From: Candidatus Cloacimonadales bacterium
GTDB taxonomy: Bacteria > Cloacimonadota > Cloacimonadia > Cloacimonadales > JAIOQZ01
Length of the DNA stretch: 64,000 bases
Assembly: GCA_963665815.1 (NCBI GenBank)
Contig: OY762463.1
Location: forward strand, 2,080,001 to 2,144,000
Direction of reading: 5' to 3'
In this document: piece by piece, positions 2,225 to 45,285 of the stretch
Position numbering within the stretch: position 1 is the first letter of the stretch
Layout: the number at the start of each line of letters is the position of its first letter
The notes under the pieces: generated by a model
Told to the model about the DNA's origin: nothing
Database searches by the model: none
The model's input: the letters and a program-made list of their open reading frames with translations, nothing else
Position numbers and translations under genes: made by a program

Positions 2225-2295
2225 GAGCTCGCAGGACGAAGTCCGAGAGTCTCCACTCCGAAGTTCGTAGGATTCCGATCCGAGAACCATAGGAG
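2225..2295 (+). repeat. GNA/GA hairpin element, 2 units
   Basis: GAGCTC-GCA-GGAC-GAA-GTCC-GA-GAGTCTC followed by GTTC-GTA-GGAT-TCCG-ATCC-GA-GAAC. Confidence 0.9.
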
Positions 2296-2380
2296 ACACC
2301 TTATTTATTAGCAGGATTGTTACCGCAATATACATACGGACTGTCAAACTGCTCTGCCGGGTCAAGAGAATGCCAACAAA

Positions 2381-2407
2381 GAGCTCGGAGCCTTAGGCGA
2401 GAGTCTC
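2381..2407 (+). repeat. GNA/GA hairpin element, 1 unit
   Basis: GAGCTC-GGA-GCC-TTA-GGC-GA-GAGTCTC, inserted at the G-R-W codons of the stub. Confidence 0.85.
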
Positions 2408-2507
2408 CCAAAACCTATTTGCGGGTCAAGGAACCGTTTTCCCCAATATATCCAGTTCAAGCCGTGTTCGTCAATAATTTCTCTGTTTTTCAAAACCTGG
2501 AGAAGAT

Positions 2508-2530
2508 AAAGCCTGCACGTGGCAGGCTTT
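2508..2530 (-). terminator. Probable intrinsic terminator after 2535-3815
   Basis: AAAGCCTGC-ACGTG-GCAGGCTTT inverted repeat just past the stop codon. Confidence 0.55.
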
Positions 2531-2534
2531 GGAT

Positions 2535-3815
2535 TTATTGTTTTGTTCTTTTATTCTCGGTGTCAAAGAAAATTGGCACATCGGCAGTATAGATTTTTAC
2601 ATAGCCTTTTCTGGACTTTTTTCTGAACAAATTAAACTTACTGTATTTCTTAAAAATTTTGAATACTTTGGTACCCCTATACTTTGTTGGCACTGGTAAG
2701 TAATAGCGGAGTCTCAAAAATTTCTGTCTAGATTCAATGAGCTCAAAACTTTCCGAATAACAAACTTCCCAATATTCCTCATCTTCAGACAAGAATTTTT
2801 TTTCTCCGATGTATCCCCAATCATACATTGTATTGAATGAGAAATACAAATTACCATAGAGGTCAATATCTATGAGTGATAGATTGTCAACATAGTTAGT
2901 TTTTTCTCTTTTCTCAAAAACAATATTACCATTCAAGTCAATTTTCAATAAATGTAAATGTCCATCATCTCTTCCTCCTCTTGCAGAAAACATGTACAAA
3001 AGGCTATCTGGTCCCATAATGAATTGTGTAAAGTCATTAAAGCAAACAGGTATTACCCTTTCCCATTGCAGTTTTCCATTTTCACAATATTTTCTAATAT
3101 TCCTAAACAAGGATCCATCAACAACCTTGTGTCCGGGTTCAGTAAAAACGGGATAGCTAAAATACAGATTATCATGTTTATCAACAATGATTGATAAGTG
3201 AGAATTTCTAAATCTTGTGAATATAGTATATTGCCACAGCGTGTTCAGTTCATTGTCTAACTTCAATAATATTGTGTCATCATCATCTAATTCCTCATTA
3301 TAGCTGAATCCGGCAATAATGTAATTGCCTTTATTATCTAATTTTACTTCTCCAATCTCTTGAACATTTTCGGTGATGTTTTTAATCCATTTGATATTGA
3401 GCTTGTCATCTGTTTTTAGCAAAACACAGTTTTCGGTCAGGTTATCATAAGTCATTATAACTGTTAATGTATCATTGAGGTTGATAGGACTGCTATAATT
3501 AATACTGAAATAATAACTATCTGAATCAGACCCATCTCTGAAACATTTTATATTAGTTGCATTTTGGGAACGCATAATCAATTTATTGTGTTTCCAACCT
3601 TTATCGAGACTAAGAGTATACTTCATGAGATATTCAGTCTTATACTTTTTTTTACTAACTCCTTCAAGCTTACTGCATATTAATCCTCTATCATCTGCAA
3701 ATAGTACTTTAGCTCCAAAGTTTAGATTAACATTATGTATTTTCTTTTCCAAATCAGTATAGCGCCAGGAAAATAATAGTGATATGATTGAAACTGATAT
3801 GTACAAAGTTTTCAT
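2535..3815 (-). CDS. Exported beta-propeller-like protein, putative cognate immunity protein of the 3317-aa RHS toxin
   Basis: Starts 3 bp after the toxin stop; hydrophobic N-terminus; repeated 'LLKxD.xxN..W' blade-like motifs; AT-rich. Confidence 0.65.
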   Translation of the reverse strand: MKTLYISVSIISLLFSWRYTDLEKKIHNVNLNFGAKVLFADDRGLICSKLEGVSKKKYKTEYLMKYTLSLDKGWKHNKLIMRSQNATNIKCFRDGSDSDSYYFSINYSSPINLNDTLTVIMTYDNLTENCVLLKTDDKLNIKWIKNITENVQEIGEVKLDNKGNYIIAGFSYNEELDDDDTILLKLDNELNTLWQYTIFTRFRNSHLSIIVDKHDNLYFSYPVFTEPGHKVVDGSLFRNIRKYCENGKLQWERVIPVCFNDFTQFIMGPDSLLYMFSARGGRDDGHLHLLKIDLNGNIVFEKREKTNYVDNLSLIDIDLYGNLYFSFNTMYDWGYIGEKKFLSEDEEYWEVCYSESFELIESRQKFLRLRYYLPVPTKYRGTKVFKIFKKYSKFNLFRKKSRKGYVKIYTADVPIFFDTENKRTKQ

Positions 3816-3818
3816 ATA

Positions 3819-6800
3819 TTAGTTTCTCCAATTTTGAAATGGGTTACCATAAATATCTCCTCTATAATAATGTTCATATATTTGATGTACAGTATGAGAT
3901 GTTCTAAGATCATAATTACTACCAAGATCATGCTTTCTATAAATATCATTGTGTTTTATATTTGAGTTCTTAATATTAAGCATTATCTGATTTGAGTTAA
4001 GCATTGCATATTGCTCTTTTTTATCCCCTGTACTGAATATGCCGAATACAGGCTTGTGTTTTTCTCTATCTACTATATAAAAATTAGTCTTTCTGTTAAA
4101 TGTATACCAGTGACCTGATTTCCATATATTAGATCTATCAGCATTGCCAGTTAAATCCTGAATATGTGAAAGCTCATGAGTAACAGTTCTTACGTTTGAA
4201 AGAACTTTTCCAGCAGATGTATACGTATTATGAAAGTCTAAGCTAAGATCGAACATGTTATCATCTCCATTAGGTCTAACACAGTTAATTGTACTTGCAG
4301 CGTTTTTCCCTAAACTGGCGTCATGAAGAGTGATAATACTTCCTTTAGCAAGAGCACCAAAAATATCATTCAGAAGTTTTTTCCCTTCTGGTCCTCCTTC
4401 TCCTGCAATTGTTCCAATGCTGTCAACAAAATCGTCAACGAATTCTGCACTATATTGTGCATTGAAATCAAGAAAAAGCAGAGCAAAATCGTCCGCAGTA
4501 TATGCTGTTCCATCTTCCTTTTTAAATCCTTCTTCCTCTAAACGATTTGCTAAGTCAGCGTGTAGTTTTTCCATCTTATCTTTTGACGTTGTACTTGTAT
4601 CTGCAGTTCCATTTCTCCAACCTAGGTTTCTTTTATCAACGAGTGAAAATTCATCATCATAAGATTTCTTTGCTTCCTGCTCAGCCCAAAACAATTTCTC
4701 TTCAATCTGTTCTCTCCTTACAGAAGCACTCCATTCTACATAGCCACCACAGGCATCAATTTCATAATTCAGCATCTGCAATTCAAAATTTTGTGCATAA
4801 TTCCAATCATCCTCAGCATTTAATGACATTCCCCTAAACCCCCGGTACAAACTCTGTAATTTAGCATACTGCTCCTGACGATATGATAATGAGATTGCTC
4901 CGTCAAGCTCTACAAAGTTTGCAGGATTGTTACCGCAATATACATACGGACTGTCAAACTGCTCTGCCGGGTCTAATGAGTGCCACCTACCTATTTGCGG
5001 GTCAAGGAACCGTTTTCCCCAATATATCCAGTTCAAGCCGTGTTCGTCAATAATTTCTCTGTTTTTTCCAATAAATCTGTACTCCGTACTCTGACTGCAG
5101 AGCATCGGTACTTTCATACCAAACGGATAGAATGTGTTATTCTGGATTACCAAAGCAGTACCGTCAGTATTCTCGGTAAACACTACCCGGATATTGCCAA
5201 GGTGGTCTTTAAGTTCATATTCGTATCGCCACTGCTGTTCTCCGACCTGAGCTGTAAAGTCTCTTACCTGCCTTCCGAAAGATGTGTTAATTACAATCTC
5301 ATCCTCAGAAGCAGTGTCTTCTGCATAGTGAGTATATACAAGACCGTTCACATAGTTAACTTTCTGGGTTACTCTGTCGTCTGCTGTAACTATCTTCTGC
5401 AGTCTTTCTCCTGTTGCAGAATACACAAAGCGGATTCTGTTCTTCATATCGTCCGCATCATCCGTGCGCTTAATCATCAGTTCCGGCAGATTAAACAGAT
5501 TGTAGCGGATATCAAATCCCTTGTTCCTGTCTTTAATCATGTTACCGTTTGAGTCGTACAGATATTCGTCTTCCGTACTGCTGCTGAAACCGTCAATAAA
5601 GCCTGTTCCTGTTATGGAAGCATTGTCTGTAACACCAATAAGCCTGTTGCCGCTGTAGGAGTAGGTGAGATCATCTATAGACTGTCTTACACCGTTTTCG
5701 TCCCGAGCAAAACGTCTTAAGCTCTGAATATTGCCATTCTCATCATAGTGCATATTCTCTATGCCGAAGTAGTTGTTTGTATCCCAGGTACTACCGTTCA
5801 AATAAGTGAAATCAGCCTTTTTCATCCTGCCAACACTGTCATAGGAATAAACGTAAGCCATTTTGGAGTAATACTTATCATTCGAGAGTCCCGGCAGCCC
5901 AAAGTTGTCTGCGGTATTCCAGATCACCGCATTAACTCTTCCATCGTGGAAGATATGATCACTGAACGGTTCCATATAGCTTGTAAGCTTTTCACGCATA
6001 ATCTGCATACCAAACAGGTCGGTACCTGTCAACCGCGGATTGTTTATCATTTCCAGTCTGCCGAGATAGTCATATTTAAAGTTAACTGTCTGCAGACCTC
6101 TTTCCTGAAAGTCATAATGGTGTATTCGGGAGAAATCCGTATTAAACGCATCTGTAATAACGGTATCATGAACATGCTTATTAACTGCCGAAACACGACC
6201 GAACTCATCATAATCATATTCTTCTGCCAGAATCTCTTCATCGTTATCAATCTTACAATATGATTTCAGTAGATTTCCAGTTCTGTTGTACACAAATGTC
6301 TTTCTGGTTTCAATATAGGTGTTTTCCACCTGCTGAACCTGCATGGATTTTGTAAGCTGACCGGCCCAGTTATACTCGTTGGTAACTGTCTGCATTCCTG
6401 CCAGATTGTTGTTCTGCGTGTGGATTACCTGTCCTTTCTTATCATAGAATATCACATCTTCAATCCAGCCTGTTCCAAAATATGTCATATCGATATCGGT
6501 TCCAATATCGGCAATCTGTTCTCCGAACATCTCAAAACCAGGACCAATATCTATGGATGATCCTTCGATAATGAATTTCTTGTCAAATGGACAAATATCG
6601 TATATGCCTTCAGGGTACTCACCCAGCTCCATTACTCTTACTTTTGTCATTGTAATTTGACCGGAAGGATATTTGAGGGCATTTCCCGTGTCAAGCTGCT
6701 GAACGGGAGTGAATGTATTGTCGTCAGTTCCGTTTCTGTCACAATCATAGTTATCGTAGTAATTAACACTCCAGATAAAGCAGTTATTGATGTCCGGGAA

Positions 6801-9800
6801 CATATAGTTTGTATATCCCTGCTGGATAACAAAGTTTATCCCTGAAGGAACTTCGTACATATCACCAGTATAGCTGTCGCAATAATTCTGCAGACTGTCT
6901 CTGGAAAGCTTATCGGGATTTTTGAATATACCGGACAATATTGTTCTGCCGTATTGATCATACTTGGAGAATGACCAGTAATCCATTTCTCTCAGTCTGT
7001 TATCCTGTTTCAGAACTATTCTGCCGTAACGGTCATAGACAACGTCGATTCTCAGATTTCCGGGAAGAGTTTTGCTTATCTGTCTGTTTTTCTCATCGTA
7101 GCGGAATGTAGTCATATACATTTCCTGCTGAGCCTGTGTAATCTCGGTTGCACCGGATAGACTGAGAATCTGAGATAATGCAGGGGATATTTCTCCGCAT
7201 AAACGCCCATATTCATCATATATGTAGCTTCTCTCAAGAATTGCACTGCTGGTAAAGGTAGTCTTGGAAATAAGCCTGCCAATTCTATCTTTCTGAATAA
7301 CGACTCCGTTATTATCTTTGTCAATAGTATTTGAATATGAAAGTTCATCAGGTTCGAACAGTCTTGATTTTACAAATGAACTGTCACCTTTGGTCCATCC
7401 CATACTGCAGTTGCTCTGAGTTCCATAATATCTATTTACATAGTATTCACTGATGGATAATGTAGGTTTTTCTGATCTTGTAACTCGCATTCGCAAAGAT
7501 TTTTCATACTCGAAATTCGATGAGTAGTTTATCGCATTGTAGTAATTATCATAACAAGGCTGTACGCAATTATCTTTTACAAACCTGCCATTGAAGTATG
7601 AAATTGGAACAGGTGGATATTTTTCTTTTTCCACTCCATTAAGATCATAAACATGTTTTTGAAGAATATGTTTTGTATCATCTTCCATGTTATATTTAAC
7701 TGATTGTGTTTTTTTACCGTAACATGTCATAAACTCAAAGCTTAGTGACGGATTAACAAGATATGCAATATTATCAATTCCGGTGTTTTGTCCGGTAATT
7801 ATAAAACCTGTTATGTCACAATTATAGTCTGCCTTGTTAAGCTCTACATCTGCATTAATACATGTACCGTCAATATACAGGTCAATCATGTCATAAGCCG
7901 TACTGGAATCAGTTTTTCTGATCACGAACATATAATGGTGCCATTCATCCGCAGGCAGGTTAACTCTATATGGAACGCTGGTTTCTCCGCTGTACCAGAG
8001 AATTTCATTGTTTGCAGTTCTGCTTATCTTCTGACCGGGACCGTTATAAATGACTTCAACAGCATCTGTATTATTTTCACCTCCGAGTGTCGCTTCGAAT
8101 TCGATTATCAGATTTTTGTTAACAGTACTGAAATTCCTGTGCAGCAGTCCTATGTTTTCTACCGAGGAGCCATGCAGGTATTTCCTTAATGAGTCTATTT
8201 CCGGAGTACCATCAATATACCAGTCTTCCGTCCATTTATTCTGGTCGAAAGATTCGTAGAAACCTTTGTCCAGAGTGGAAGCGGAGATACCTAAATTTTT
8301 ATTCAATTCAGCGTATACTAAACTTGGATTGGAACAACCTGCAGGAACGTATATCTGGGTGTTCTTTGTTTGATTCATAAAGACATTTGTTGATGAATAA
8401 GGAACACCATCTGTGTCCAGAGTATGACACTTTTCATCAAGATAATTGTACGTTGTATATGTAATGTGATTATGTGAGTTGGTTGTAGATGTGTGTCTGC
8501 TAAGCACATTATCACTAGTGTAAGATGATAGTCTGGCATCAACAGGAGCAATTCTCAGGTTATCAAGCAACTGATAATCGCCCTCGCTTGCCTGATCAAG
8601 TCCTATTTCAATAGTCACATACGTATTTTCTAAAGGGCAACTCTGGTTATCATGAGTATAGAAAAACTCTTTCAGTTCCCACTCCAGTTCCGATATTGGT
8701 GATGAATTGAAACTTGCAGTCACACTACCTGTATACGTATCCGTTAATATTAACTCTATATCTTTGTCAGATGCAGTATTATGTTTTTTCTGCCAGTAAG
8801 AAATCTTGTATGTTTTACCATAATAGAAATTCATCTTAAAGAGATTTCCTGTATGACTTACTTTCATTGATTTCTCTCCGGTCTTACCGGATCCATATTC
8901 TATTTCAAAAGGGCTTCCAGTCAGCATATATGGTGTATGATCAATAACCAGATTGTCCGGATACTCAAAACTCTCAGCAAGGACTTCTTCCGGTTCACAT
9001 ACTTGAGACGTAAACAGAGGCAGTCCGTTTTCCTGATTATAGAATATATTAGATTTAATATGATTATCTCCAATTTGGCTGACAGGCCTCATATGTTCAT
9101 CATACTCCAGGATTAAACTCTTTCTGTGCCAGTCACCGCAGAATTCCGGGTAATTGGAAGGTATGGATGGCAAATATGACAGTGCGTCAGGATCACCTTT
9201 ATACTTGTAAGTAGCTTTTATAGCCCACTTTCCGTCAAACAAATCCCAGGCAATAAATGAGTCAGAAGTAATTCTGTTGTCTGTTTTGGTTGTAATCTGT
9301 ACAATGGAATTGGAAATCGGAGCACCGGGGTCGCTATACACTTCGTCCCAGTATCTGTTTGAAACAATGACTGTCGGATAACCGGTTCTGTATTTCTCAA
9401 CTTGTGTAAGTCTTCCGTTAGTTTCATCGTATCTGTACATAGATGTTTCAGGATAACCATCAACAGTAGATATTTTCTTGTGTAATACAATTTTTTTTCT
9501 TCCATCAATATAAAGTAATCGGTAGAAGTTCTGAGTTTCCGAGAATAAATTGTCATCATCATCGTAGACAAGAGAGTGCATCTTTTTTCCTCTCAGCAGG
9601 TCTTTTCTGTGCAGGGAATCTACAAGTGAAGCTGATGGAAAATTCTCATATCCATTGTAGTATCTTGTCAGAACATACCCAAGATCATCATTAACCTGCT
9701 TTTTTACTTCGCAGTAAGAAGCGTTTGTTCCCATAACATTCATCTTGGCAGTGTCGCAATTGTAATCGTAGGTGATTTTCTTTACACGCACTGAGTTGTT

Positions 9801-23977: not shown

Positions 23978-24448
23978 ATGAATAAATACAGAAAATTGTT
24001 CACCGTGTTACTGATAATTGCCGCTATAGTTGTCTGGGGATCGTTCTTTGTGAGAGTAAAACAGGCAAAGGCAGAGGACAGCCAACAGACAGCATCCATA
24101 GACAATAAAGTAATTGAAACCACCAGAACTGACAGCCTGAACATAGATTTTATGGGTAGTTTCCGTGATCCGTTTGCCCACACTCCTGCTCCAGTGGAAA
24201 AGAAAAAAGAAACCCAGCCAAAGCATTACCCAAAACCAATTGTCCAGCGACCAGACATAAATATTACCGGTGTAATAGGTAAAACCCTGATACTTGAGTT
24301 TAAAGGTAAATCCATGGTGCTAAGCCAGGATGAACAGGCAGAATTCGGGCTGATATACAGCATAGAACCTGACTCTGTTATAGTGCAGGTTAAAGATAAC
24401 TTTTTTACCTATAAACTGGCTAAGGACAACAGGATGGAGTTGGAGTAG
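23978..24448 (+). CDS. PilP/GspC-like protein, last gene of the operon
   Basis: N-terminal TM, FRDPF motif, INITGVIG. Confidence 0.65.
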   Translation: MNKYRKLFTVLLIIAAIVVWGSFFVRVKQAKAEDSQQTASIDNKVIETTRTDSLNIDFMGSFRDPFAHTPAPVEKKKETQPKHYPKPIVQRPDINITGVIGKTLILEFKGKSMVLSQDEQAEFGLIYSIEPDSVIVQVKDNFFTYKLAKDNRMELE

Positions 24449-27442: not shown

Positions 27443-27446
27443 ATAA

Positions 27447-28293
27447 TTACTCCTCATTTGGCCACAATTCCATTGGAGGTACTTTTAGCTCAACTCCTCC
27501 TCCAACAATTACACCTGCTTTCAGTCCTATACTATGATCTCCCCCCCCAATCATGTCCATAGGAAACTCCAGCACCAATAGTGCCTATATCCCCATGTAA
27601 CCTCAGGGATGATCCATCATCATGGGTACTCTTGATACCAAGCTCTAGAGTAGTTACTGCAGCTTCTGCAGCAAATTTCAAACCACTTGTTCCTCCGACT
27701 GCTTTTCCTTTCAAAGATAATTTTGCGAAGTTTTTATCATAATCAAAATGTGCTCCTTCAGCATATGGATTAATAATTTTCCCCTCTTCCTTTACTGCCT
27801 GAGCTTCAAAACTCCCTTCAAAACCAAGTCTATCAAGACCAATATGAAATTTTATCTCACCTTTTATAACCCATTCCTTTGTAACTGTTCCATCCCAGAA
27901 TCTACTAATATTAATATATTTCTCATCTAATGTAAATGGAATTTCAAAAGCCCCATCCGGATCAAGGAAGTTCACCGGGTCGTTGTGGCAATACACATAA
28001 GGACTAAAGAACTCATCAGCCGGGTCAACTGCCATCCAGCAATGAGCTTGCAGGGCATAGCCCGAAAGTCTCCAAAAATGAGCTCGTAGCCGCAGGAGAG
28101 AGTCTCCACTCCGAAGTTCGCAGGATGCAAATCCGAGAACCATAGGAGGTACATTACTCTCATCTTCAAACTCTTTGTTGTTGTAGAGGAATTTGTTATC
28201 CACACTATTGTTAACGGATAATCCCGGAATCCTCATCCCGAACGGATAGTAATGATCTTTCTGGACTTTTAAAGCTGTGTTTCCCAGATACAA
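27447..28293 (-). CDS. Orphan RHS stub plus toxin tip (cassette C); frameshift in a G8 run at 27541-27548
   Basis: QKDHYYPFG..NDPVNFLDPDG. Removing one G extends the ORF to TAA 27447, adjacent to the next gene. Confidence 0.8.
28044..28149 (+). repeat. GNA/GA hairpin element, 3 units
   Basis: Same 106-nt element; third unit GTTC-GCA-GGAT-GCAA-ATCC-GA-GAAC. Confidence 0.92.
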
Positions 28294-29705: not shown

Positions 29706-30500
29706 TCATTTTTGAGGTTCACCAATATTAAGAAAAGACTCCATTGAGTCCAATGCATCTGCAGCAGTAGGAACTACTCCGGGTTCATCAACTTTGATAT
29801 TACCCTTTTCTACCTCTCCTTCATATTTTTCCTGTACTTTTTGAACAGAGTAAGTAATAGCAGCTTCGGCAGTTTTCATGTTAATAACTCCTCCAGCAGC
29901 AACACCCAGAACGAAGTAAGCTTCTTTCTTCATAGGTAAATTAGGATCTTCAGCATCGCATGCTAATGCTACTGTCTCCACAGTTGCACAGGTACCAGCA
30001 GTAGTTCCTGCTAGCATACTAATCATCCCTGCTGCAACTGCAATTGAAGAACCGCCTGTGAGGATTGCTGTTGCTCCACCTGCTATTCCTATCCCTGCCG
30101 CAGCCCATAATGAACCTGCAGTCCACGCTCTTCTAGACTTGCTTACAGTTTCCTTCGCTTTTTCACTAGCAGCCCCATCCGGATCAAGGAAGTTCAATGG
30201 GTCGTTGTGGCAATACACATAAGGACTAAAGAACTCATCAGCTGGGTCAACGACCATCCAGCACCCGAGCTGTGGGTCGTAATAACGCACACCGTAGTGG
30301 TAGCAATGAGCTTGCAGGGCATAGCCCGAAAGTCTCCAAAAATGAGCTCGTAGCCGCAGGCGAGAGTCTCCACTCCGAAGTTCGTAGGATTTGAATCCGA
30401 GAACCATAGGGTGTACATTATTCTCATCTTCAAATTCTTTGTTGTTGTAAAGGAATTTGTTATCCACACTATTGTTAACAGATAATCCCAGAATCCTCAT
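29706..30500 (-). CDS. Orphan RHS stub plus hydrophobic (membrane-active?) toxin tip (cassette D)
   Basis: YHYGVRYYDP..DPLNFLDPDG followed by WTAGSLWAAAGIGIAGGATAILTGGSSIAVAAGMISML. Confidence 0.85.
   Translation of the reverse strand: MRILGLSVNNSVDNKFLYNNKEFEDENNVHPMVLGFKSYELRSGDSRLRLRAHFWRLSGYALQAHCYHYGVRYYDPQLGCWMVVDPADEFFSPYVYCHNDPLNFLDPDGAASEKAKETVSKSRRAWTAGSLWAAAGIGIAGGATAILTGGSSIAVAAGMISMLAGTTAGTCATVETVALACDAEDPNLPMKKEAYFVLGVAAGGVINMKTAEAAITYSVQKVQEKYEGEVEKGNIKVDEPGVVPTAADALDSMESFLNIGEPQK
30308..30413 (+). repeat. GNA/GA hairpin element, 3 units
   Basis: Same 106-nt element; second unit GCC-GCA-GGC, third unit GGAT-TTGA-ATCC. Confidence 0.92.
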
Positions 30501-30773: not shown

Positions 30774-30815
30774 TATATTTTCCCTTTTAAGATTTAACCA
30801 CGAAATACACATAAG

Positions 30816-30842
30816 AAAAAAGCCAGAAAACATGTTTCTGGC
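30816..30842 (-). terminator. Repeated cassette terminator, copy 4 (directly after the full-length RHS gene)
   Basis: GCCAGAAA-ACATG-TTTCTGGC preceded by an A-tract. Confidence 0.75.
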
Positions 30843-30873
30843 CTTGAATAATAAGTTTCAAATGAATATTTGA

Positions 30874-33800
30874 TTAATCCCATTCATCAGATTCTCCTGA
30901 CTCTGTAGTCTGCCTAGATGAAGGAGGGTATGCTTCATCGGGGGCATTACTCCTATTGAGTTGTTCAACCTGCAATTTTCGATTTAAATTGTCTATCGGT
31001 GCTCCAATCTTGATTATCTCTTGTCCAATCATATCCTGTTCGAAATATTCTTGATGAGTATATATCTTACTATCTTTTGTGTTAGAAACACTAACTTCAT
31101 GAGAACCTATTTTTTTCAGATTTGCAAATTTTTTCAACCACTTTATCTTACCTATTGGAAGAAGATCGAATGATATAGAAGTCCCTTCACCAGTTGCCAT
31201 AACATCACCGGATTCAGAGCGAATAACATGTCTATGATTGTTAACAAAATAACCATCAGTTATTGTTGTAGTCTCACCTGAATAAACACTTAAATCATCA
31301 TTACTATATACTGTTGATTCAATTGAGATGGAAAGCCCAAATGTATTACCCATGCTTTTACCTTTTGCGAAAGTATCTCGACATTCTGTGTCTGTAGACA
31401 TGTGCCCCCAACTCAAAGAACCTCCAACAAATAATCCCCCACTAATTGTAATACTATATGCTTTAGCAACAGCCCCATCGGGATCAAGGAAGTTCACCGG
31501 ATCGTTATGGCAATACACATAAGGACTAAAGAACTCATCAACCGGGTCAACTGCCATCCAGCGCCCAAGCTGTGGATCGTAATAACGCACACCGTAGTGA
31601 TACCAGTTAAGGTTGTAATCATCTTCGTATTCCTTATTGTTGTAGAGGAATTTATTGGATTTATCTCCATTGGCAGAGGATAATCCTCCAAGTCTCATTC
31701 CAAATGGGTAATAATGGTCTTCCTGCACAAGCAAAGGATCATAGAAGGAAGGACTACTCATATCAGTATCTCTCTTAACGGATGCTCTGGTATTACTGAG
31801 GTGATCTTTCATATCATAAACATACTCAAAGTTATGGTCTGCATTCATTACAATTCTACCCGCAGGCTGTGTTACCTGTTTGATTATTCTGTTATCGAGA
31901 ATTACTCCACCGCAATAGTCGGTTGTACTTGTAATATTGCCATCAGCATCCCGTACATTCTTTCTGAGCTTAGCTCCACCTGCAGAATATATCCATTCTA
32001 TAGACCTGCCATCCTCGAACGAAACGAAATCCGGAAGATTAAGATAGTTGTATGAAATGTTAATACCTTTATTGTGGTCTTCTGTCAGATTACCATTAGC
32101 ATCATACACATATTCTATCTGTCCTGATGTTGAGTAATTATGTCCCCTGTCATTAAAATCTTCACTTTGCAGAGTAGATACAGCGTCATCCACAGCAATC
32201 AGCTTATTACCATCATAATTATATGAAAGCTGGTCAATATAACCGTTTGCTCCTGTACCTTTTCTGTCAATGTGCTTAATATTTCCGTTCAAATCATATT
32301 GTATGTTATCAACATCATATGTACCAAAATTCTCGTAAGGATAAGGATTTTGATCTGTATCATTATTAACTCCGAATTTTGCACTCTCAAGCTGATATGA
32401 ATTATCATAGGCATAGGCATAAGCCATCTTCTGAGAATTTCCAAATGAAGAGCTGGATCGTGTTCTCCAGATAAATTCTGAGATTATACCGGTGTAGTTG
32501 GGAGTTGTATAACCTGTTTCGGTGTTCTCGAAATTAAGCTTATAAGCAAACATATCATTGTCATTGGATCTGAAATCAACATCATTTACTTGTGTAACTT
32601 TCCCCTTAATATTGTACCAGTAATCCACTTTCTGCAGGAAAGCTGCATCTGTCAGAGAAACCGGGTCTGAGCTGAAAAGATCAAAATTTTCATCAAGACG
32701 GGCATCAAGCAGTTTGGATTTCAACTGGTTCATTTCATTGTAATGATTTTCGAGCACAAGAATCGGGTCATCATCATTAACCTGCATATATACTTGCTTT
32801 ATCCCATCATTATGATTATATTCATATCTTTTTCTGGTCACGAGAGTATTATAATCTAAACTTCCGGATACGATCTCTTTAACTGTTACTTCTTTAACAG
32901 GTAAATCAATGAAATTATAGCTAACGGTATTAATAGTTTTCATGTTCATGTGATCAAGAGATTGTGTCTGGATAACATTACCATGTTTATCATAATAAGT
33001 CACTGTTTCCAGCCACTGATTTTCAGGTCCATTTGTAAGAATATCAATACTCGAAGATGCTTCAAGCTGCTGTCCTGGGTGTGTACAGAATCCCGGATTA
33101 AATATGATAGATTCTCCGGAATATTTCACAACTACTTCATCCGGGCAGTAACTATAAGAATGATTTCCATAGAATATTGTACCACCGGGAGTATCTGAGT
33201 TTAATACACGCACTTTGCTGCAAGTCGCTTTACCGGAAACTCTGTCGAATTTTTCCACTTCCGGAAGCTCTGAGCATGGAGCAAAGGTATAATTCTCGTT
33301 CCCCGGGAAATCGTAATTATCATAGTAGTTTACTGAAAGTACCTGACAATTAATAATATTGGGGAAGGCTGCATTTGAATATTCAAAGGCTTCTGAAGGA
33401 TCACGTTTTTCATATAAATCGAATGAGCTTGAGAAAGCCGGATCATCAAACATATTTTGCAGAAATGATCTTGTATGAATTGCAGGACCCTCATAAATCC
33501 CGGACAATATTGTTCTACCTCTGACATCCACTTTTGAGAATGTCCAATGATCCTGAGCTCTCATATTGGAATCTCTGGTTAGTACAATTCTTCCGGTTTT
33601 ATCATATACGGTTTCAATTGTGCCACATTCTGGCAGCGTTTTCTCAATAAGCCTGTTACGTGTATCGTACTTCATTATGGTAGCGTATTTATTAACCAGA
33701 TCAATGTTATTCTGATCTGTTTCTCCTAACTCATATTGATAACTATTGGCTAGTTCAGGTGGTATAATTGCAACCTGGTTTCCCTTATCATCAAAAACAT

Positions 33801-34926: not shown

Positions 34927-34938
34927 GTTCCAACCTCC

Positions 34939-41328: not shown

Positions 41329-42432
41329 TTACTGATTATTTTCTTTCAACTCATTAATTTCTTTTTTGAGTTCAATTACGTATAGTGTTAATTCTTCTAT
41401 CTTTTTAAGGAGAACAGCCTGATTATCCCCAACATTAAGTCCTTCCTTACTAACTTGATCTGCAGAAGGAACATCAGGTAAATGATTATTTTCAGCTATG
41501 AACTGCTCAAGTTCTTCCAGAGATTTGAGTTTGTAGTCATCTTTGAAAACATAATCCGGCCAGTATGTACTGTCAAAAGTCTCAACTCTTAACTGGCTTG
41601 CTACAACCTTACCTTTATAATGGAATGTCGGTTCGAAATCAGCTAAAAATCCAAGACTTTCAGTTTCCTGATTATCGTACCTTTGGGCAAATGTTTTTAA
41701 AACAAGTTCAAGTTTATTCGTTGTTTCATTATATGAACAGTCTTGAGTACTTGAAACCTGTATTGAACTGTAGAGAGTTTCAACACTTGTGGGTCTAGTG
41801 AGAGTAAATGTTGTGACTTTATTATTGTATTCATTTTTTAAATTTGTAGTTATAGAATAATTGGGAGAAGACTGAAATGTGTCTTTTTTCTCAAAAATCA
41901 ATCCGCTGCCATCCAAAGAAGTTCTGCAATAATCAGAATTACTTTGCGTAGTATTAAACAAAATTTTATTTTTGTCAAAAGTTGAATAAACTGTGTTAGC
42001 AGATCCATTATCGAATGACAAGTATGTCCCAGTTAAGGCGGATTTCGGTACAACTGTTGAACCTACATTTGTGTCCCAGTCACCTATCACTAAACCACCT
42101 GGGAAAAACTCCATTGATGATTTGACACAACTGGCATCTTCATCCCAGAAACCTACTGATAATTGATTTAGATTATCATGAAAGAAACCACATTGTCTAT
42201 CTCCTTCATTATACCATCCAAACTTCAATCGACTTGCATTAAACAAACCATATCTTTTTTCTGAAGTAACAATTTCTTCTGTAACTTTGAAGTTACCTTT
42301 TGTTTCTAGTTTCTCTGTCGGATCCTCAATCCCAATGCCTAATTTCCCATTAATAGTTAAATTCTCAGGATCATCTGCAAATAGCGCGATAGTCACTAAC
42401 ATTAACATTCCTAATAAAACACTTTTTTTCAT
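41329..42432 (-). CDS. Exported fibre/chaperone-like WPDYVF protein (paralogue 2)
   Basis: Highly similar to 13787-14890 over the first ~143 aa and the last ~95 aa; the middle shows no evident similarity. Confidence 0.75.
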
Positions 42433-42624
42433 TTTTCCTCCAATTATTTTATATGTTGATTATTATATCTAATTAATTTTCCTCTACATAATTATTGCCA
42501 CTCTATATATCACCAATACAAGACATTGAATATACATTAAGTGTGTCAATAAATTTTGAGAAAAATGTTTACAACAAAATCTCTTCAACTTTTGTTGCAA
42601 AAAGCTTAATTTCAGGAGGAATAG

Positions 42625-44277
42625 ATGAGGAAGATACTTTTATTAATTGGTTTATCATTATTTTCAATAATACTAAATGCACAATACTTTTACGAGTGGG
42701 AATGGGTGCGAACGGCAGGTAGTACATATGGAGACGGAGCAATGTTTATTGATAGATCTTTTAATGGAGGCAATGCTATAGGGGGACTATGTTATAATGG
42801 TTGTAATTTTGGTGTCTATACTGCTTCTGGACAATCAACATCATATAAGGGGTATTTTATATCAACAATAAACTCTAATGGTACTTTTACAAGTTTAACA
42901 CATTCAGATTTCACTGATGAATGTCAAATTTTAGCATCAGCAGAAGACTCTGTTGGAAACAGAGTGTATATTGGGACATTTATGGATGAATTGTACATGG
43001 GTTCTCATCATGTTGTTTCTGTCGGAGCCCATAATACGTTTATTGCAAAACGGAGCGCAAATGGAAGCTGGTTGTGGTTAACCTCAATTCAAAGTTCAGA
43101 TACCGTAGTTCCCCATTCAGTAGATATTGACAGCGCAGGTAGAGTTTATGTATCCGGAGAATATCGTGATGATGCTTTGTTTGGACAATATTCGGTGAGT
43201 ATTTCTGGGGAGGATGACGGCTTTGTCGCATGTCTGGATTCTGCAGGTAATTTCCAATGGGTTAAAACATGTAGCGGAACTAACTATGATGAAGCTAATA
43301 AGATCATGGTGCATAATAATAGAATATATCATGTAGGATTCTTTATTGAGGCAGCACAAGTATTCGGTCAACCACTTACAGCTTCTCCGGGACCCTGTAA
43401 TTCTTATATTGCCTGCTTTGACACTCTGGGGAATGTTGTCAGTTTAGACCAGATACCTGGAAACAATATTGTAAAAGATTTTGCTTTCACGGATGATAAT
43501 GATTTATATATTCTTGGAGAATTCTATCAATCATTTACTCTTGACAATCATACTGTGACTTCGAATGGATTGTGGGATATTTTTGTGGCAAAATTAGATT
43601 CCACTGGAACATGCAGATGGTTAAAATCTGAAGGCTCAAGCGGTACTGAACATGTATATGAAATGGAATGTTATAATAATAGGATCTTTATAACTGGACA
43701 TTTAGAAGGTAGGACATACTTTGATAATTATATGGTTTTTTGCTCTTCCCAAAGAGAAAGTTTTGTGGCTGAAATTGATTCTTTATCCAGCTGGAAGTGG
43801 GTAAGAAGTTTGCAGAGTACGAATGATACATTTATAAGATCCATTTACGTTGCTGGTGATAATGAAATCTATGTTGCCGGTTCTTTTCTAGGAGATCTGG
43901 AGGTTGGAAATCAAGTAATTGCCAACAATGGTAGCTATGATATTCTAATAGCTAAGCTCTCTGATCCTTATCATTCAACCGACGACAACACCATAACCTA
44001 CGAACCGATATCTATCACAAACTACCCAAATCCGTTCAATCCGGAAACAACAATTGAGTATTCATTGAATAAACAAAGCAATGTAGAACTTACAGTTTAT
44101 AACATCAAAGGGCAGAAAGTAAAAACTCTCGTATCGGGCACAAAAGATCAGGGATTGCAGAAAGTAATCTGGAAAGGTGACGACAGCTCCGGACATAAAG
44201 TCGGTTCCGGGGTTTATTTTTATGTACTCAAAACACCAGACTCTACGATATCAAAGAAGATGCTGCTTCTGAAATAA
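42625..44277 (+). CDS. Secreted beta-propeller (SBBP-like repeats) with C-terminal FlgD-Ig/sorting-type domain
   Basis: Repeats such as DIFVAKLDSTG..W; C-terminal NYPNPFNPETTI..YNIKGQKVKTL..SGVYFY..KKMLLLK. Confidence 0.85.
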   Translation: MRKILLLIGLSLFSIILNAQYFYEWEWVRTAGSTYGDGAMFIDRSFNGGNAIGGLCYNGCNFGVYTASGQSTSYKGYFISTINSNGTFTSLTHSDFTDECQILASAEDSVGNRVYIGTFMDELYMGSHHVVSVGAHNTFIAKRSANGSWLWLTSIQSSDTVVPHSVDIDSAGRVYVSGEYRDDALFGQYSVSISGEDDGFVACLDSAGNFQWVKTCSGTNYDEANKIMVHNNRIYHVGFFIEAAQVFGQPLTASPGPCNSYIACFDTLGNVVSLDQIPGNNIVKDFAFTDDNDLYILGEFYQSFTLDNHTVTSNGLWDIFVAKLDSTGTCRWLKSEGSSGTEHVYEMECYNNRIFITGHLEGRTYFDNYMVFCSSQRESFVAEIDSLSSWKWVRSLQSTNDTFIRSIYVAGDNEIYVAGSFLGDLEVGNQVIANNGSYDILIAKLSDPYHSTDDNTITYEPISITNYPNPFNPETTIEYSLNKQSNVELTVYNIKGQKVKTLVSGTKDQGLQKVIWKGDDSSGHKVGSGVYFYVLKTPDSTISKKMLLLK

Positions 44278-44296
44278 ATATTTGAACTGAAATCAC

Positions 44297-44370
44297 CCTT
44301 CGACTCCGCTCAATGAACTTAATATACTGTTATTCTTTGCTTTACAAGCTCCCTGAGCGGAGTCGAAGGG
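44297..44370. repeat. REP-like inverted repeat between convergent genes
   Basis: CCCTTCGACTCCGCTCA ... TGAGCGGAGTCGAAGGG. Confidence 0.75.
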
Positions 44371-44653
44371 AATACTTTTATTGCTGAAAAATCAATAAAC
44401 CATAGTAAAATATATAGATGTATCTCTTCACCCATCCTTTAAATCTTAGCGATATGAACACTGAAGCTGACAAGGCAACTAACATAGACATATACACTAG
44501 TAAATCAGCAAAATCTTGATTATCAAACCAGTAACAATGAAAAGAGGTATACTATGTAGTAAGAATAACTTGATCCTTCTATAAATCTCCATTTTCTGCC
44601 TCCTGACGTAGATAATATAAGACATTGTTCCAAGGATAGAAATAAAAATTATA

Positions 44654-45285
44654 TTAATCGATTCTTAATTGATGTTTAGCATCATAGTAATTAAACTTGC
44701 CAGGTAATTTTTCTCCTGAATATTCTAATAGAGATTCATTGAATGAATTACTATTAACATTGAAACCTGAATTAACGCGACCAATTGGTACTAAATTCTG
44801 TAGTTCGTTTGGGTACGTTACAGGATCATCGGGATTATCAGGCAATGCCACAGTAAATTGATGTCTTCCATAAAAAGTAATTGGATTTTTTCCTTTTTTA
44901 ACGTTTAAACCTCTAGCTCCTGTGAATATTTCTTGTCCATCCGGATCTACAAATATAATTGGATTATTTGCACAGTATGCAAAAGGGCTACTCAATTCAT
45001 CTGCAGGATCAGGAGATGTCCAACGTGCAATCTGAGGGTCGTAATAACGTGCGCCGTAATGGTACCAAAGAGCTCGTAGCCGCAGGCGAGAGTCTCACCT
45101 CCGAAATTCGTAGGATGTAATCCGAGAATCATAGGAGGTACATTATTCTCATCTTCGTATTCCTTATTGTTGTAAAGGAATTTATTGGATTTATCTCCAT
45201 TATTAGAGGATAATCCTCCAAGTCTCATTCCAAACGGATAGTAGTGGTCTTCCTGGACTTTTAAAGCTGTGTTTCCCAGATACAA
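44654..45285 (-). pseudogene. Orphan RHS stub plus short or decayed tip (cassette E), frameshifted at the hairpin insertion
   Basis: QEDHYYPFG..NNKEYEDENN in one frame; WYHYGARYYDPQIARW..NPIIFVDPDG in another. Confidence 0.8.
45070..45138 (+). repeat. GNA/GA hairpin element, 2 units
   Basis: GAGCTC-GTA-GCC-GCA-GGC-GA-GAGTCTC / ATTC-GTA-GGAT-GTA-ATCC-GA-GAAT (compensatory ATTC/GAAT). Confidence 0.9.

What the first reader, a model, noticed from the sequence alone, without database searches (positions are those of the whole stretch)
2225..45138. Covarying GNA/GA hairpin element found only inside orphan RHS-core stubs
Fourteen hairpin units occur in six blocks (2225-2295, 2381-2407, 26601-26706, 28044-28149, 30308-30413, 45070-45138). 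They share one architecture: outer stem, 5'-GNA, inner stem, 3-4 nt loop, inner stem', GA, outer stem'. Stems covary (GGGC/GCCC, GCC/GGC, GGAC/GTCC, GGAT/ATCC; GTTC/GAAC versus ATTC/GAAT). The G and A residues of the internal loop are invariant while N varies (T, C, G), which suggests sheared G-A pairs with a bulge. Several loops are C-GNA-G or GNRA. The structured strand is always antisense to the toxin. I found the units only in orphan stubs, at three different conserved core motifs (LNW, GRW, NFVE), and never in the two full-length RHS genes. Inference: a REP-like ssDNA/RNA element that targets or silences cassettes, or that sets where tip-swapping recombination can occur.
Basis: partly seen in the sequence, partly recalled or inferred. 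Interest (0 to 1): 0.85.

Follow-up and report, generated by a model that had tools for sequence, protein, structure and literature searches.

The report
Hairpin repeat colonising RHS toxin stubs
A small hairpin-forming DNA repeat, known only from one genus of uncultured bacteria, sits in one fixed orientation almost only in leftover fragments of RHS toxin genes and helps rearrange them; it is an unusual variant of known selfish repeats, not a new kind of system.

Summary
All 14 units in six blocks are real. They are insertions relative to element-free RHS cores and fold as outer stem / G-N-A / inner stem / loop / G-A / outer stem. On 34 distinct copies, 13 of 19 modelled pairs change on both sides and 97% of cells pair. 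The structured strand is the one antisense to the toxin.

Genome-wide, a covariance model finds 28 copies. Of these, 23 lie within 3 kb of an RHS core hit, which is 2.9% of the genome. Four more lie in orphan-cassette arrays. One is an ordinary intergenic cluster tied to tRNA-Arg and shared by both species.

The element was found only in this genus: 2 of 151 order genomes and 2 of 232 phylum genomes. A sister genus has orphan RHS arrays without it.

It resembles GTAG-headed REP/BIME repeats, but no RAYT gene is flanked by it. It has no terminal inverted repeats or target duplication, and no Rfam match.

Best reading: a lineage-specific, non-autonomous modular palindromic repeat living in non-functional duplicates inside RHS arrays. 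It spreads mostly by recombination between paralogous stubs and causes deletions and fusions. A dedicated cassette-recombination or silencing role is possible but unshown.

The parts
2220..2305 (+). Two-hairpin composite (hp1 long type GGAC-GAA-GTCC, plus hp2 GGAT-TCCG-ATCC). It lies between NPAN and LDGA of the orphan stub whose tip ORF is 1102-2220. An in-frame TAG sits directly 5' of LDGA.
   Evidence: 95.9 bits
2376..2420 (+). Single hp1 unit (GCC-TTA-GGC) inserted at the G-R-W motif of the same stub. Net +34 nt, which shifts the frame.
   Evidence: 31.3 bits
26598..26715 (+). Three-unit cluster A-B-C before (W)YHYG of orphan stub ORF 25909-26793. Net +105 nt, in frame.
   Evidence: (108 bits)
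28041..28158 (+). Three-unit cluster A-B-C in stub ORF 27532-28293. The 42 nt encoding YHYGVRYYDPQLG are missing, as expected from recombination between A units at two sites.
   Evidence: (99 bits)
30305..30422 (+). Three-unit cluster A-B-C in stub ORF 29706-30500, in frame.
   Evidence: (99.9 bits)
45065..45147 (+). Two-unit composite B-C in the stub around 44654-45339. The hp2 loop is 1 nt shorter, so the frame is shifted (+68 nt).
   Evidence: (99.9 bits)
31450..31740 (-). Element-free core of the full-length RHS gene (ORF 30874-34926). This is the 'empty site' reference for core type A.
4890..5180 (-). Element-free core of the full-length RHS gene (ORF 3819-13772). This is the 'empty site' reference for core type B.
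47125..47410 (-). Orphan stub core without any element, showing that not all stubs carry it.
24245..24421 (+). 3' end of the intact gene after PilN/PilO (23978-24448). About 170 nt of it are duplicated inside RHS arrays (window 25392-25514 and 30570-30746, and four other arrays). Three of the out-of-window copies examined carry the element (about 2.9k, 1058k, 3358k); the intact gene and the 30.6k and 25.4k window copies do not.

Best explanation
The units belong to one lineage-specific family of small, non-autonomous, modular palindromic repeats of the REP/BIME kind.

Structure. Each unit is about 30-36 nt. It has a G[T/C/G]AG head at the foot of a 3-4 bp G+C-rich stem-loop, embedded in a second outer stem, so the head and an opposing GA form a 3x2 purine internal loop. 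Units are strung head-to-tail: A, B, then a terminal unit C or D closed by a further CTCC/GGAG helix.

Where it lives. The family sits almost only in the non-functional duplicated DNA of RHS orphan-cassette arrays, always with the structured strand antisense to the toxin genes.

Shown:
- The units are insertions.
- The structure is maintained by compensatory change.
- Unit number and hairpin identity differ between copies, and even at the same site of the same cassette in two species.
- Copies recombine with one another, deleting or fusing parts of cassettes.

Inferred:
- New sites arise rarely, at least six in this genome. The mechanism is structure- or single-strand-dependent and leaves no inverted termini and no target duplication, often removing a few target bases.
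- Copy number then grows mainly by homologous recombination or gene conversion between paralogous stubs and by duplication of whole arrays. This also explains the constant orientation.
- Full-length genes lack the element because insertions there are selected against.
- No host function is required, but the element is a source of cassette rearrangement.
For: Insertions. A1 gives empty versus filled sites. The spacing between two conserved core anchors is 144 nt in all 3 element-free cores where both anchors were found. It is 207-285 nt in the 8 element-bearing cores measured. 4 further stubs lacked one anchor and were not measured.

Structure; 13 of 19 pairs change on both sides and 97% of cells pair. 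As RNA, the minimum-energy fold of the hairpin strand reproduces the architecture at -40.2 kcal/mol (z -3.1, 1 of 200 shuffles as good). The complement gives -33.8 (z -0.9, 41 of 200). As DNA the values are -17.1 (z -1.9) and -13.6 (z -0.5). In 6 of 6 single units the + strand is the more stable. G-T wobble cells number 14 against 6 A-C cells on this strand.

Distribution. 28 model hits in 3.96 Mb. 23 of 28 lie within 3 kb of RHS core hits, which is 2.9% of the genome. 4 of the other 5 are in orphan arrays.

Lineage-specific invader. Found in 2 of 151 order genomes by the model and 2 of 232 phylum genomes by a unit pattern (reversed-pattern control: 2 hits in total). An exact junction pattern over GTDB species representatives hits only the sister-species MAG. 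Sister-genus genome G006 has 16 core matches, at least 11 of them covering the query contiguously across the insertion sites, and has no element.

Multiple sites, one orientation. The sites are before WYHYG, at GRW (separately by an A unit and a B unit), NPAN|LDGA, FFSP|NDPVNF, the 3' end of duplicated pilus-gene fragments, and core-less tips.

Modularity and turnover. All four combinations of hp1 short/long with hp2 C/D occur. The tRNA-linked locus has 5 tandem 30-nt units in G000 and 1.9 in G001. The cassette with the same tip (91.8% identity over 1562 nt) carries A-B-C in G000 but long-B-D in G001.

Element-to-element recombination. The 28k and 1054k stubs lack the 42 nt between two A-unit sites, both of which are filled in 2012k. 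At 332k, 2059k and 2074k the composite bridges the GRW and LDGA sites. At 1057.8k a core is joined to a pilus-gene fragment. A G001 copy is an hp1/hp2 fusion.

Published kind. GTAG-tagged REPs have degenerate second and third head positions, stems of 5-13 bp, clusters and intragenic copies (PMC3733652, abstract and section 5 read, plus passages). The GTAG at the hairpin foot is needed for RAYT binding and cleavage of single-stranded DNA (PMC3479197, passages read).
Against: - No enzyme. The two RAYT-like genes are flanked by other repeats. The model finds nothing near them or near their homologues in G001 and G002 (best 11 bits, E 0.12). The one gene that passes the NCBIfam RAYT cut-off has no match in G001 with this query. 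No TnpB-type gene was found.
- The confinement to RHS arrays is stronger than a neutral-haven model predicts. Another dispersed repeat in the same genome occupies ordinary intergenic DNA, with 49 motif hits. Some targeting or function may therefore exist.
- Constant orientation over roughly 6-8 independent sites is only marginally unlikely by chance (about 0.03). It could equally reflect selection.
- In type-A stubs, length changes are multiples of three in 5 of 6 inferred events (+69, +36, +36, +66, +3, against -1). This hints at selection on an open frame, which a purely selfish element in dead DNA does not predict.
- Single units are only weakly stable as DNA, at -2.4 to -4.7 kcal/mol, with 7 to 115 of 200 shuffles folding as well.
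Confidence: 0.55

Rival explanations
1. The hairpins are a structure-specific recombination signal, read on the folded single strand in the way an integron attC site or a REP bound by its RAYT is read. An unidentified enzyme uses it to capture, delete or exchange RHS tip cassettes.
For: - Copies sit at or near the 5' boundary of the exchangeable part: directly before LDGA in type-B cassettes and in core-less tips.
- Footprints of element-to-element joining exist.
- Upstream and downstream core segments have unlinked histories (Spearman -0.08, p 0.5 over 12 cores). The segment 3' of the element is 91-96% identical between the main gene and several stubs, while the 5' segment is 70-72% identical.
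- Strand asymmetry and a conserved head at the hairpin foot.
- A tyrosine recombinase with an HTH_17 gene lies at the distal end of one array.
Against: - No enzyme is linked to the element in either genome.
- 9 of 26 stubs lack the element, and sister-genus arrays have none, so arrays form and diversify without it.
- Mosaic junctions also occur between element-free cores: full31k versus stub47k is 70% upstream and 96% downstream.
- Positions are scattered over five or more sites rather than one fixed cassette boundary.
- The observed rearrangements are explained by ordinary homologous recombination between 30-100 nt repeats.
Confidence: 0.15
2. The element acts at the RNA or transcription level. 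One option is a structured module in transcripts running antisense to the orphan toxins, serving as a stabiliser, processing site or antisense silencer. Another is a roadblock in the template strand that insulates orphans from read-through.
For: - As RNA, the antisense strand folds into exactly the three proposed hairpins. The MFE structure has ensemble frequency 0.31 and z -3.1, against -0.9 for the sense strand.
- G-U-compatible changes outnumber A-C changes 14 to 6.
- Some loops are GNRA or C-GNA-G.
- In array V a convergent pilus operon points into the array. In duplicated pilus-gene fragments and at the tRNA-Arg locus the element lies downstream in the sense orientation, as classical REPs do.
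Against: - No Rfam family matches, even at E 10.
- The units have no T-tract, so they are not intrinsic terminators.
- 9 of 26 stubs and all sister-genus stubs do without it.
- Positions vary.
- Unit number varies from 1 to 5, which is unusual for a dedicated regulatory RNA.
Confidence: 0.15
3. The insert is tolerated or selected as coding sequence, as with Rickettsia palindromic elements. Type-A orphans remain translatable, and the element adds a 23-47-residue peptide (…PPMVLG.TSYELRSGDSRLRLRA…) to the RHS core.
For: - 6 of the 8 element-bearing type-A stubs measured keep one open frame from the core through the element(s) into the tip. One is frameshifted (w45k) and one has an internal stop (G001 104k). 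ORF tables also show single frames spanning the elements at 2008k, 2010k and 3361k.
- Net length changes of +69, +36, +36, +66 and +3 are all multiples of three.
- In-frame intragenic palindromic repeats are on record (PMC3733652, passages read).
Against: - The events are few and partly non-independent, because the A unit is 36 nt by nature. Adding the two type-B events (+34 nt frameshift; a stop before LDGA) gives 5 of 8, which is not significant.
- Type-B stubs are disrupted.
- Compensatory changes preserve base pairs, not residues.
- There is no evidence that the stubs are translated.
Confidence: 0.08
4. Chance palindromes, or a by-product of coding constraints in the RHS core.
For: None beyond the weak stability of single units as DNA.
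Against: - Absent from element-free cores that encode the same motifs.
- Absent from sister-genus cores.
- 28 model hits at up to 108 bits.
- Copies also lie outside coding sequence.
- The reversed-genome control gives 8, against 51 family units.
Confidence: 0.01

Closest known systems
GTAG-tagged repetitive extragenic palindromes (REP) and their clusters (BIME)
   Same: - Short palindromic units headed by GTAG-like tetranucleotides at the hairpin foot; the second position is degenerate here (T, C or G).
- Compensatory stem variation and G-T pairs.
- Occurrence as singletons, dimers and tandem clusters, with occasional intragenic copies.
- No inverted termini and no target duplication.
(PMC3733652 abstract, section 5 and passages; PMC3479197 passages.)
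   Different: - About 28 loci, not hundreds.
- Confined to RHS orphan arrays rather than dispersed downstream of genes.
- Units are head-to-tail, an arrangement the paper calls absent or under-represented.
- Inner stems are only 3-4 bp, and an outer helix turns the head into an internal loop.
- No RAYT gene is flanked by them.
Rickettsia palindromic elements (RPE) and other intragenic REPs
   Same: Palindromic repeats found inside open reading frames, often in frame, adding 20-30 residues (PMC3733652 passages). Here the inserts add 23-47 residues and are in frame in 6 of 8 measured type-A stubs.
   Different: - RPEs sit in many unrelated, functional genes. These sit in one gene family's non-functional stubs, and none was found in the full-length genes.
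- There is no sequence relation; I made no direct comparison with RPE sequences.
IS200/IS605-derived palindrome-associated elements (PATE) and Y1 (HUH) single-strand transposition
   Same: Subterminal hairpins, strand asymmetry, no inverted termini and no target duplication. (The features of the family are recalled, and appear partly in PMC3479197 passages.)
   Different: - No conserved 4-5 nt target 5' of the insertions.
- A few target bases are often lost.
- Orientation does not follow the replication strand inferred from GC skew.
- The genome has only two Y1 genes, both RAYT-like with other flanks, and no TnpB.
Integron attC sites
   Same: A cassette-associated element whose structure, not its sequence, is conserved and which is asymmetric between strands. 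(attC properties are recalled.)
   Different: - Lies inside or 5' of the toxin cassette rather than at its 3' end.
- Consists of tandem 20-nt hairpins rather than one long imperfect hairpin.
- No integron-type integrase is adjacent: of 4 tyrosine recombinase genes, one lies at the end of one array.
- The R'/R'' core-site consensus was not tested.
Modular pneumococcal BOX-type repeats (recalled, not checked in any call)
   Same: Built from a few kinds of short modules in variable number, predicted to fold, with no encoded transposase.
   Different: BOX elements are dispersed in intergenic DNA. Here the distribution is restricted to one kind of gene array.

Membership tests
GTAG-type REP/BIME | 20-40 nt palindromic unit with a GTAG-like tag at one foot of the stem-loop | tested here: met
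   Units read YTYG[T/C/G]AG-stem-loop-stem-CGARAR. The last G of the tag is paired and an outer helix encloses the tag, which the published families mostly lack (PMC3733652 section 5).
GTAG-type REP/BIME | High copy number, dispersed in extragenic DNA, mostly downstream of genes | tested here: not met
   28 model hits. 27 are in RHS-type arrays and 1 is in ordinary intergenic DNA.
GTAG-type REP/BIME | A RAYT gene flanked by the same repeats (REPtron) | tested here: not met
   Two RAYT-like genes: window 53689-54177 (48.5 bits, cut-off 80) and G000 3509.4-3510.0k (82.6 bits). Each is flanked by unrelated repeats. There is no model hit within the roughly 3.3-3.6 kb loci fetched around them, or around homologues in G001 and G002.
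GTAG-type REP/BIME | Compensatory stem changes and G-T pairs among copies | tested here: met
   13 of 19 pairs change on both sides; 14 G-T cells.
TIR-type MITE | Terminal inverted repeats and target-site duplication | tested here: not met
   The ends are 5'-RAGCTYG… and …GGAGRYACMTT-3', which are not inverse complements. At five sites the target bases are replaced, not duplicated.
IS200/IS605-derived PATE | Insertion 3' of a fixed tetra- or pentanucleotide, orientation tied to the replication strand, and a cognate Y1 transposase | tested here: not met
   No common 5' flank. Orientation is mixed relative to the GC-skew replichores. There is no IS200-type TnpA or TnpB.
Integron attC | A single long imperfect hairpin at the 3' end of each cassette, with an adjacent IntI integrase | tested here: not met
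   Tandem short hairpins lie inside or 5' of the cassette. No integrase adjoins the arrays, apart from one phage-type integrase at the end of array IV. The core-site consensus was not tested.
Any Rfam RNA family | Match to a curated covariance model | tested here: not met
   No relevant hit at gathering score in the window. No hit at E up to 10 over 26450-26850.
Intragenic in-frame palindromic elements (RPE-like) | Inserted in frame in genes that stay functional | tested here: inconclusive
   In frame in 6 of 8 measured type-A stubs. But the hosts are orphan fragments of unknown expression, and type-B copies break the frame.

The most novel reading that the evidence does not exclude
The hairpin clusters are the cis-acting sites of a dedicated, structure-reading recombination system for polymorphic-toxin cassettes. 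Folded on the strand antisense to the toxin, they would mark the 5' limit of the 90-135 nt high-identity 'handle' through which an orphan tip is swapped into the expressed RHS gene. They would be cut or joined by an as yet unrecognised enzyme. That would be an attC/REP-like solution evolved for toxin-tip switching in one Cloacimonadales lineage.
Probability: 0.12. Interest if true: 0.8.

Novelty: new variant of a known kind. Interest (0 to 1): 0.42.

Why it matters
RHS and other polymorphic toxin loci diversify by keeping silent orphan tips and recombining them into the expressed gene. What controls where and how often this happens is poorly known.

This repeat family appears in essentially one genomic niche, the orphan arrays, and demonstrably mediates deletions and fusions there. 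If that confinement reflects targeting, the element would be a natural handle on cassette dynamics. It would also be an example of a REP-like repeat with a specific target.

If the confinement reflects only tolerance plus spread by gene conversion, the case is still useful. It shows how paralogous pseudogene arrays can act as a reservoir for selfish structured repeats, and that in-frame palindromic inserts are not peculiar to Rickettsia.

The known distribution is one uncultured genus, which limits the immediate impact.

Tried and rejected
- Rfam: no relevant family. The only window hit, SNORD36 at 45755-45824 (31 bits against a cut-off of 30, E 0.59), is taken as spurious.
- Public collections. 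The exact junction pattern in metagenome contigs gave 0 loci. A second, looser pattern gave 7 loci, and 0 of 7 matched the model at E up to 1. The unit pattern in viral contigs gave 3 loci in high-G+C coding DNA without the hairpin, taken as chance. blastn of the 117-nt cluster against plasmids and phages gave no match.
- Expression: no RNA holder is listed for the stretch, so nothing can be said about transcription.
- Laying contigs of four runs on 25600-31800. Related strains in two sediment runs hold the 26k tip. A contig of theirs jumps from 26571 to 28098, inside the element region, but the letters between are 'not known'. I could not read presence or absence of units from it.
- Replication-strand bias. 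Cumulative GC skew has its minimum at 2.70 Mb and maximum at 0.52 Mb. Arrays with either hairpin orientation occur in both inferred replichores, so no bias is seen. Arrays may have moved after insertion.
- Conserved target motif, inverted termini or duplication at junctions: none seen.
- The small ORF on the hairpin strand beside some copies looked like a possible cargo gene. It is the duplicated 3' end of the gene after PilN/PilO.
- Co-occurrence of RAYT genes with the element across 8 family genomes. The bona fide RAYT was not found in G001 with this query. The weaker window RAYT has close homologues in G001 (82% and 50% identity) and only weak ones in the sister genus, but it carries its own repeats. 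This is not informative.
- A unit-level covariance model was not built, because a model of about 23 nt would not reach significance in a 4-Mb genome. A regex scan with a reversed-genome control was used instead.
- R-scape was not available.

Full report
**What is in the window**

On the + strand each unit has this form: a 3-6 bp outer stem (GAGCTY…RAG-T-CTC or RTTC…GAAY), then G-N-A, a 3-4 bp G+C-rich inner stem, a 3-4 nt loop, the inner stem's complement, G-A, and the outer stem's complement.

The last unit of each cluster is enclosed by a further helix, CTCC…GGAG. A strict scan finds 13 of the 14 units. The 14th has one mismatch.

The toxin genes lie on the - strand, so the purine-loop strand is antisense to them in all six blocks.

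**They are insertions**

Alignment of the stubs with the two full-length cores and one clean stub (A1) shows each block as extra DNA.

- Between two conserved anchors the spacing is 144 nt in the 3 element-free cores where both anchors were found.
- In the 8 element-bearing cores measured, the spacing is +63 to +141 nt longer. 4 further stubs lacked one anchor and were not measured.
- The window sites are: before (W)YHYG, at GRW, and between NPAN and LDGA.
- At each site a few target bases are replaced. Nothing is duplicated, and the element ends are not inverse complements.

**Structure and strand**

A covariance model of the two-hairpin composite was built (R1, from 20 copies of both species). 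It aligns 38 hits, 34 of them distinct. On that alignment:

- 97.0% of cells form standard pairs. Shuffles give 87.8% (0 of 500 reach the observed value). Partners slid by 1-3 columns give 26-66%.
- 13 of 19 pairs change on both sides.

These copies are kin and the alignment was fitted to the model, so the figures overstate independence. The compensatory variants are nevertheless plain in the raw sequences: GCC/GGC, GGAC/GTCC, GGGC/GCCC, GGAT/ATCC, GAAC/GTTC, GGGT/ACCC, CTC/GAG versus CTT/AAG, and GTTC/GAAC versus ATTC/GAAT.

Folding of the three-unit cluster:

| Molecule | Hairpin (+) strand | Complement |
|---|---|---|
| RNA | -40.2 kcal/mol, z -3.1, 1 of 200 shuffles as good | -33.8, z -0.9, 41 of 200 |
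| DNA | -17.1, z -1.9 | -13.6, z -0.5 |

The + strand RNA fold reproduces the proposed architecture. Single units are weak as DNA, at -2.4 to -4.7 kcal/mol, but in 6 of 6 the + strand is the more stable. G-T cells outnumber A-C cells 14 to 6.

The G and A of the internal loop are nearly invariant, not fully. Three or four of about 60 units depart.

**Genome-wide distribution**

The window is G000:C1:2080001-2144000 of a 3.96-Mb single-contig genome.

- R1 finds 28 copies: 24 composites (55-108 bits) and 4 single units.
- tblastn with the two core types finds 28 core clusters.
- Only 2 of these belong to full-length ORFs (3337 and 1354 residues). Both are element-free.
- Of the 26 stubs or fragments, 17 have an element within 150 nt and 9 have none.
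- 23 of 28 model hits lie within 3 kb of a core hit, which is 2.9% of the genome. The nominal binomial P is about 3e-31, but the copies are not independent.

The other five hits are:

- 5.0k and 3358k, in arrays that span the contig ends or lie 3 kb from a core.
- 521.8k and 524.6k, directly 5' of 'LDGAL…' tips that have no core. In G001 the same cassettes lie downstream of a 2951-residue RHS gene.
- 3456k, discussed below.

A structure-only scan finds no further family members. Of the 16 G+C-stemmed units outside the 3-kb zones, 7 belong to these loci and 9 match the background. The reversed-genome control gives 8.

**Not core-specific but array-specific**

Some copies adjoin a conserved sequence of about 170 nt on the hairpin strand. 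This proved to be the 3' end of the gene after PilN and PilO (window 23978-24448). I call it pilP-like from its operon position only; it has no Pfam hit.

Fragments of it are duplicated in at least five arrays. Three of the out-of-window copies examined carry the element (about 2.9k, 1058k, 3358k). The intact gene and the 30.6k and 25.4k window copies do not.

The common denominator is therefore non-functional duplicated DNA inside RHS arrays. Orientation relative to the array is constant throughout.

**The one outside copy**

At G000 3456.0-3456.2k there are five tandem 30-nt hp1-like units followed by an hp2 unit. They sit beside a 178-nt sequence that begins with the 3' end of tRNA-Arg(CCT).

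In G001 the same arrangement lies directly after the tRNA gene: tRNA-Arg, then 5.1 copies of the 178-nt unit, then 1.9 units, then hp2. In G000 the tRNA itself lies 32 kb away at 3423542-3423618.

This locus is shared by both species, so it is probably old. It shows that the family can exist as an ordinary tandem cluster outside RHS arrays.

**Taxonomic range**

| Search | Result |
|---|---|
| Model, order level | 2 of 151 genomes |
| Unit pattern, phylum level | 2 of 232 genomes (25 and 8 matches; reversed-pattern control 2 in all) |
| BLAST of the cluster, relatives | 2 of 41 genomes |
| Exact junction pattern, GTDB species representatives | only contigs titled 'Candidatus Cloacimonadales bacterium', which is G001 |
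| Metagenome, viral, plasmid and phage collections | nothing real |

The four genomes of the sister genus have RHS cores. One (G006) has 16 matches, at least 11 of them uninterrupted across the insertion sites. None has the element. The element is therefore a lineage-specific addition, not part of how orphan arrays are built.

**Dynamics**

- Unit number ranges from 1 to 5.
- All four combinations of short/long hp1 with C/D-type hp2 occur.
- The cassette with the same tip in the two species (91.8% identity over 1562 nt) carries A-B-C in G000 and long-B-D in G001. That is far more change than the flanks show, which points to exchange among copies.
- Recombination footprints:
  - The 28k and 1054k stubs lack exactly the 42 nt between two A-unit sites. 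Both sites are filled in 2012k.
  - Three type-B stubs have one composite bridging the GRW and LDGA sites.
  - 1057.8k joins a core to a pilus-gene fragment through the element.
  - One G001 copy fuses hp1 to hp2.

**Relation to core mosaicism**

Across 12 type-A cores, identity in the 96 nt upstream of the first site is uncorrelated with identity in 75 nt downstream (Spearman -0.08, p 0.5).

The main gene shares 91-96% identity with several stubs downstream but 70-72% upstream. The element thus lies at the 5' edge of the high-identity tract through which tips could be exchanged. A crossover 3' of it would give an element-free chimera.

The same upstream/downstream discordance is seen between two element-free cores (70% versus 96%). 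The element is therefore not needed for these junctions.

**Reading frame**

In type-A stubs the net changes are +69, +36, +36, +66 and +3 nt, with one -1. Of the 8 element-bearing stubs measured, 6 stay open through the element. One is frameshifted and one has a stop. ORF tables show three more spanning frames.

Type-B copies break the frame or bring a stop before LDGA. The events are few and not independent. I take this as a hint, no more, that some orphans are kept translatable, as published for in-frame intragenic palindromic repeats (PMC3733652, passages read).

**Search for an enzyme**

- The genome has two Y1/HUH genes.
  - Window 53689-54177 scores 48.5 bits against NCBIfam's RAYT model (cut-off 80). 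It is flanked on both sides by CCATTCGCAAGG-N6-7-CCATTGCGAAGG repeats. These form a dispersed family of their own, with 49 motif hits.
  - G000 3509386-3510015 scores 82.6 bits. It is flanked by its own hairpins, which occur only there.
- The model finds nothing near either gene, nor near homologues in G001 and G002.
- The second gene has no match in G001 with this query.
- There is no TnpB-type gene.
- Of four tyrosine recombinase genes, one lies at the far end of array IV together with an HTH_17 gene.
- No cognate enzyme can be named.

**Orientation**

GC skew puts the skew minimum at 2.70 Mb and the maximum at 0.52 Mb. Arrays of either hairpin orientation occur in both inferred replichores. 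The constant feature is orientation relative to the array. Inheritance through array duplication and stub-to-stub recombination would explain this. Over the roughly 6-8 independent sites, chance alone is only marginally excluded.

**Comparison with the known**

The closest described kind is the GTAG-tagged REP/BIME super-family. According to PMC3733652 (abstract and section 5 read), that family has an unpaired GTAG-like tag at one foot, with degenerate second and third positions in some families. Stems are 5-13 bp with compensatory variants and G-T pairs. Copies occur as singletons, dimers and tandem clusters, and some are intragenic.

In E. coli the tag at the hairpin foot is required for binding and single-strand cleavage by the RAYT (PMC3479197, passages read).

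The present family shares the head, the palindrome, the modular clustering and the lack of inverted termini. It differs in five ways:

- low copy number;
- confinement to one kind of array;
- head-to-tail order;
- very short inner stems enclosed by an outer helix;
- absence of a REPtron.

It fails the tests for TIR-MITEs, IS200/IS605-derived elements, attC sites and all Rfam families (see the membership table).

Literature searches were made for Rhs + orphan + palindromic + toxin (18 papers, listing seen) and for Cloacimon + Rhs (1 paper, listing seen). From titles and abstract starts, neither turned up a description of such an element. This covers only the open-access library searched.

**Verdict**

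The finding is real and statistically solid. The most likely identity is a new, genus-restricted variant of REP-like modular palindromic repeats that lives in RHS orphan arrays and remodels them (confidence about 0.55).

A dedicated role in cassette recombination or in silencing remains open, at about 0.15 each. Either would be considerably more interesting. Both are testable with population genomics, strand-specific RNA data and simple single-strand binding and cleavage assays.

Noticed in passing
window 53600-54300: A 162-residue Y1/HUH gene (53689-54177, - strand) matches Pfam Y1_Tnp at E 4.5e-10 and the NCBIfam RAYT model at 48.5 bits, below the cut-off of 80. It is flanked on both sides by paired motifs CCATTCGCAAGG-N6-7-CCATTGCGAAGG. 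The motif has 49 hits dispersed over the genome, including window 56189-56230 and 57884-57925. It looks like a REPtron with a repeat family unrelated to the finding.
   Followed up: partly
window 24245-24421, 25392-25514, 30570-30746: About 170 nt of the 3' end of the gene after PilN/PilO (23978-24448) are duplicated inside this RHS array and in four other arrays of the genome. Orphan cassettes therefore seem to have spread together with a piece of this neighbouring gene.
   Followed up: partly
window 24486-24533, 26967-27014, 28397-28444, 30799-30846, 45346-45393: A conserved terminator-like hairpin, AAAGCCAGAAAAC(A/G)(T/A)GTTTCTGGC, recurs between cassettes. Stubs also begin at recurrent positions of the core, e.g. 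…PFTTNELNFAILW… at 25290-25348, 26865-26923, 28298-28356, 45290-45348 and 47433-47491. This suggests a fixed cassette unit rather than random displacement.
   Followed up: no
G000 3423542-3456200 (L024) and G001 C13:268078-271152 (L048): tRNA-Arg(CCT) is separated by about 32 kb from repeats of its own 3' end in G000. In G001 the tRNA is followed directly by 5.1 perfect tandem copies of a 178-nt unit that begins with the tRNA 3' end. This looks like an integration hot spot with an island in G000. A 224-residue integrase frame lies at 3443974-3444471.
   Followed up: partly
window 34926-34939: The 'full-length' RHS locus at 30874-40104 is two genes. A 1721-residue ORF ends in TAG. It is followed 12 nt later, after a GGAGG, by the ATG of a 1350-residue DUF6443-RHS protein with a signal-like start.
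   Followed up: partly
window 54315-57659: An AAA_15/AAA_21 (AbiEii-like) ATPase gene (54315-56072) and a SatD-family gene (56958-57659) lie beside the RAYT-like gene. This may be a defence-type neighbourhood.
   Followed up: no
G000 2057400-2058850 (L069 4417-5841): A phage-type integrase (SAM_5 + Phage_integrase) and an HTH_17 gene lie at the distal end of the RHS array that includes window 1-13772, next to carboxylase genes. The array may lie on an integrated island.
   Followed up: no
window 45755-45824: An Rfam SNORD36 match at 31 bits (cut-off 30, E 0.59) in a bacterial genome; almost certainly spurious.
   Followed up: no
window 13787-14890 and 41329-42432: Two paralogous 367-residue genes without Pfam hits (79% DNA identity over 300 nt) lie just upstream of each main RHS locus. 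At the second locus an OmpH-like gene is also present. They may be accessory genes of the RHS system.
   Followed up: no
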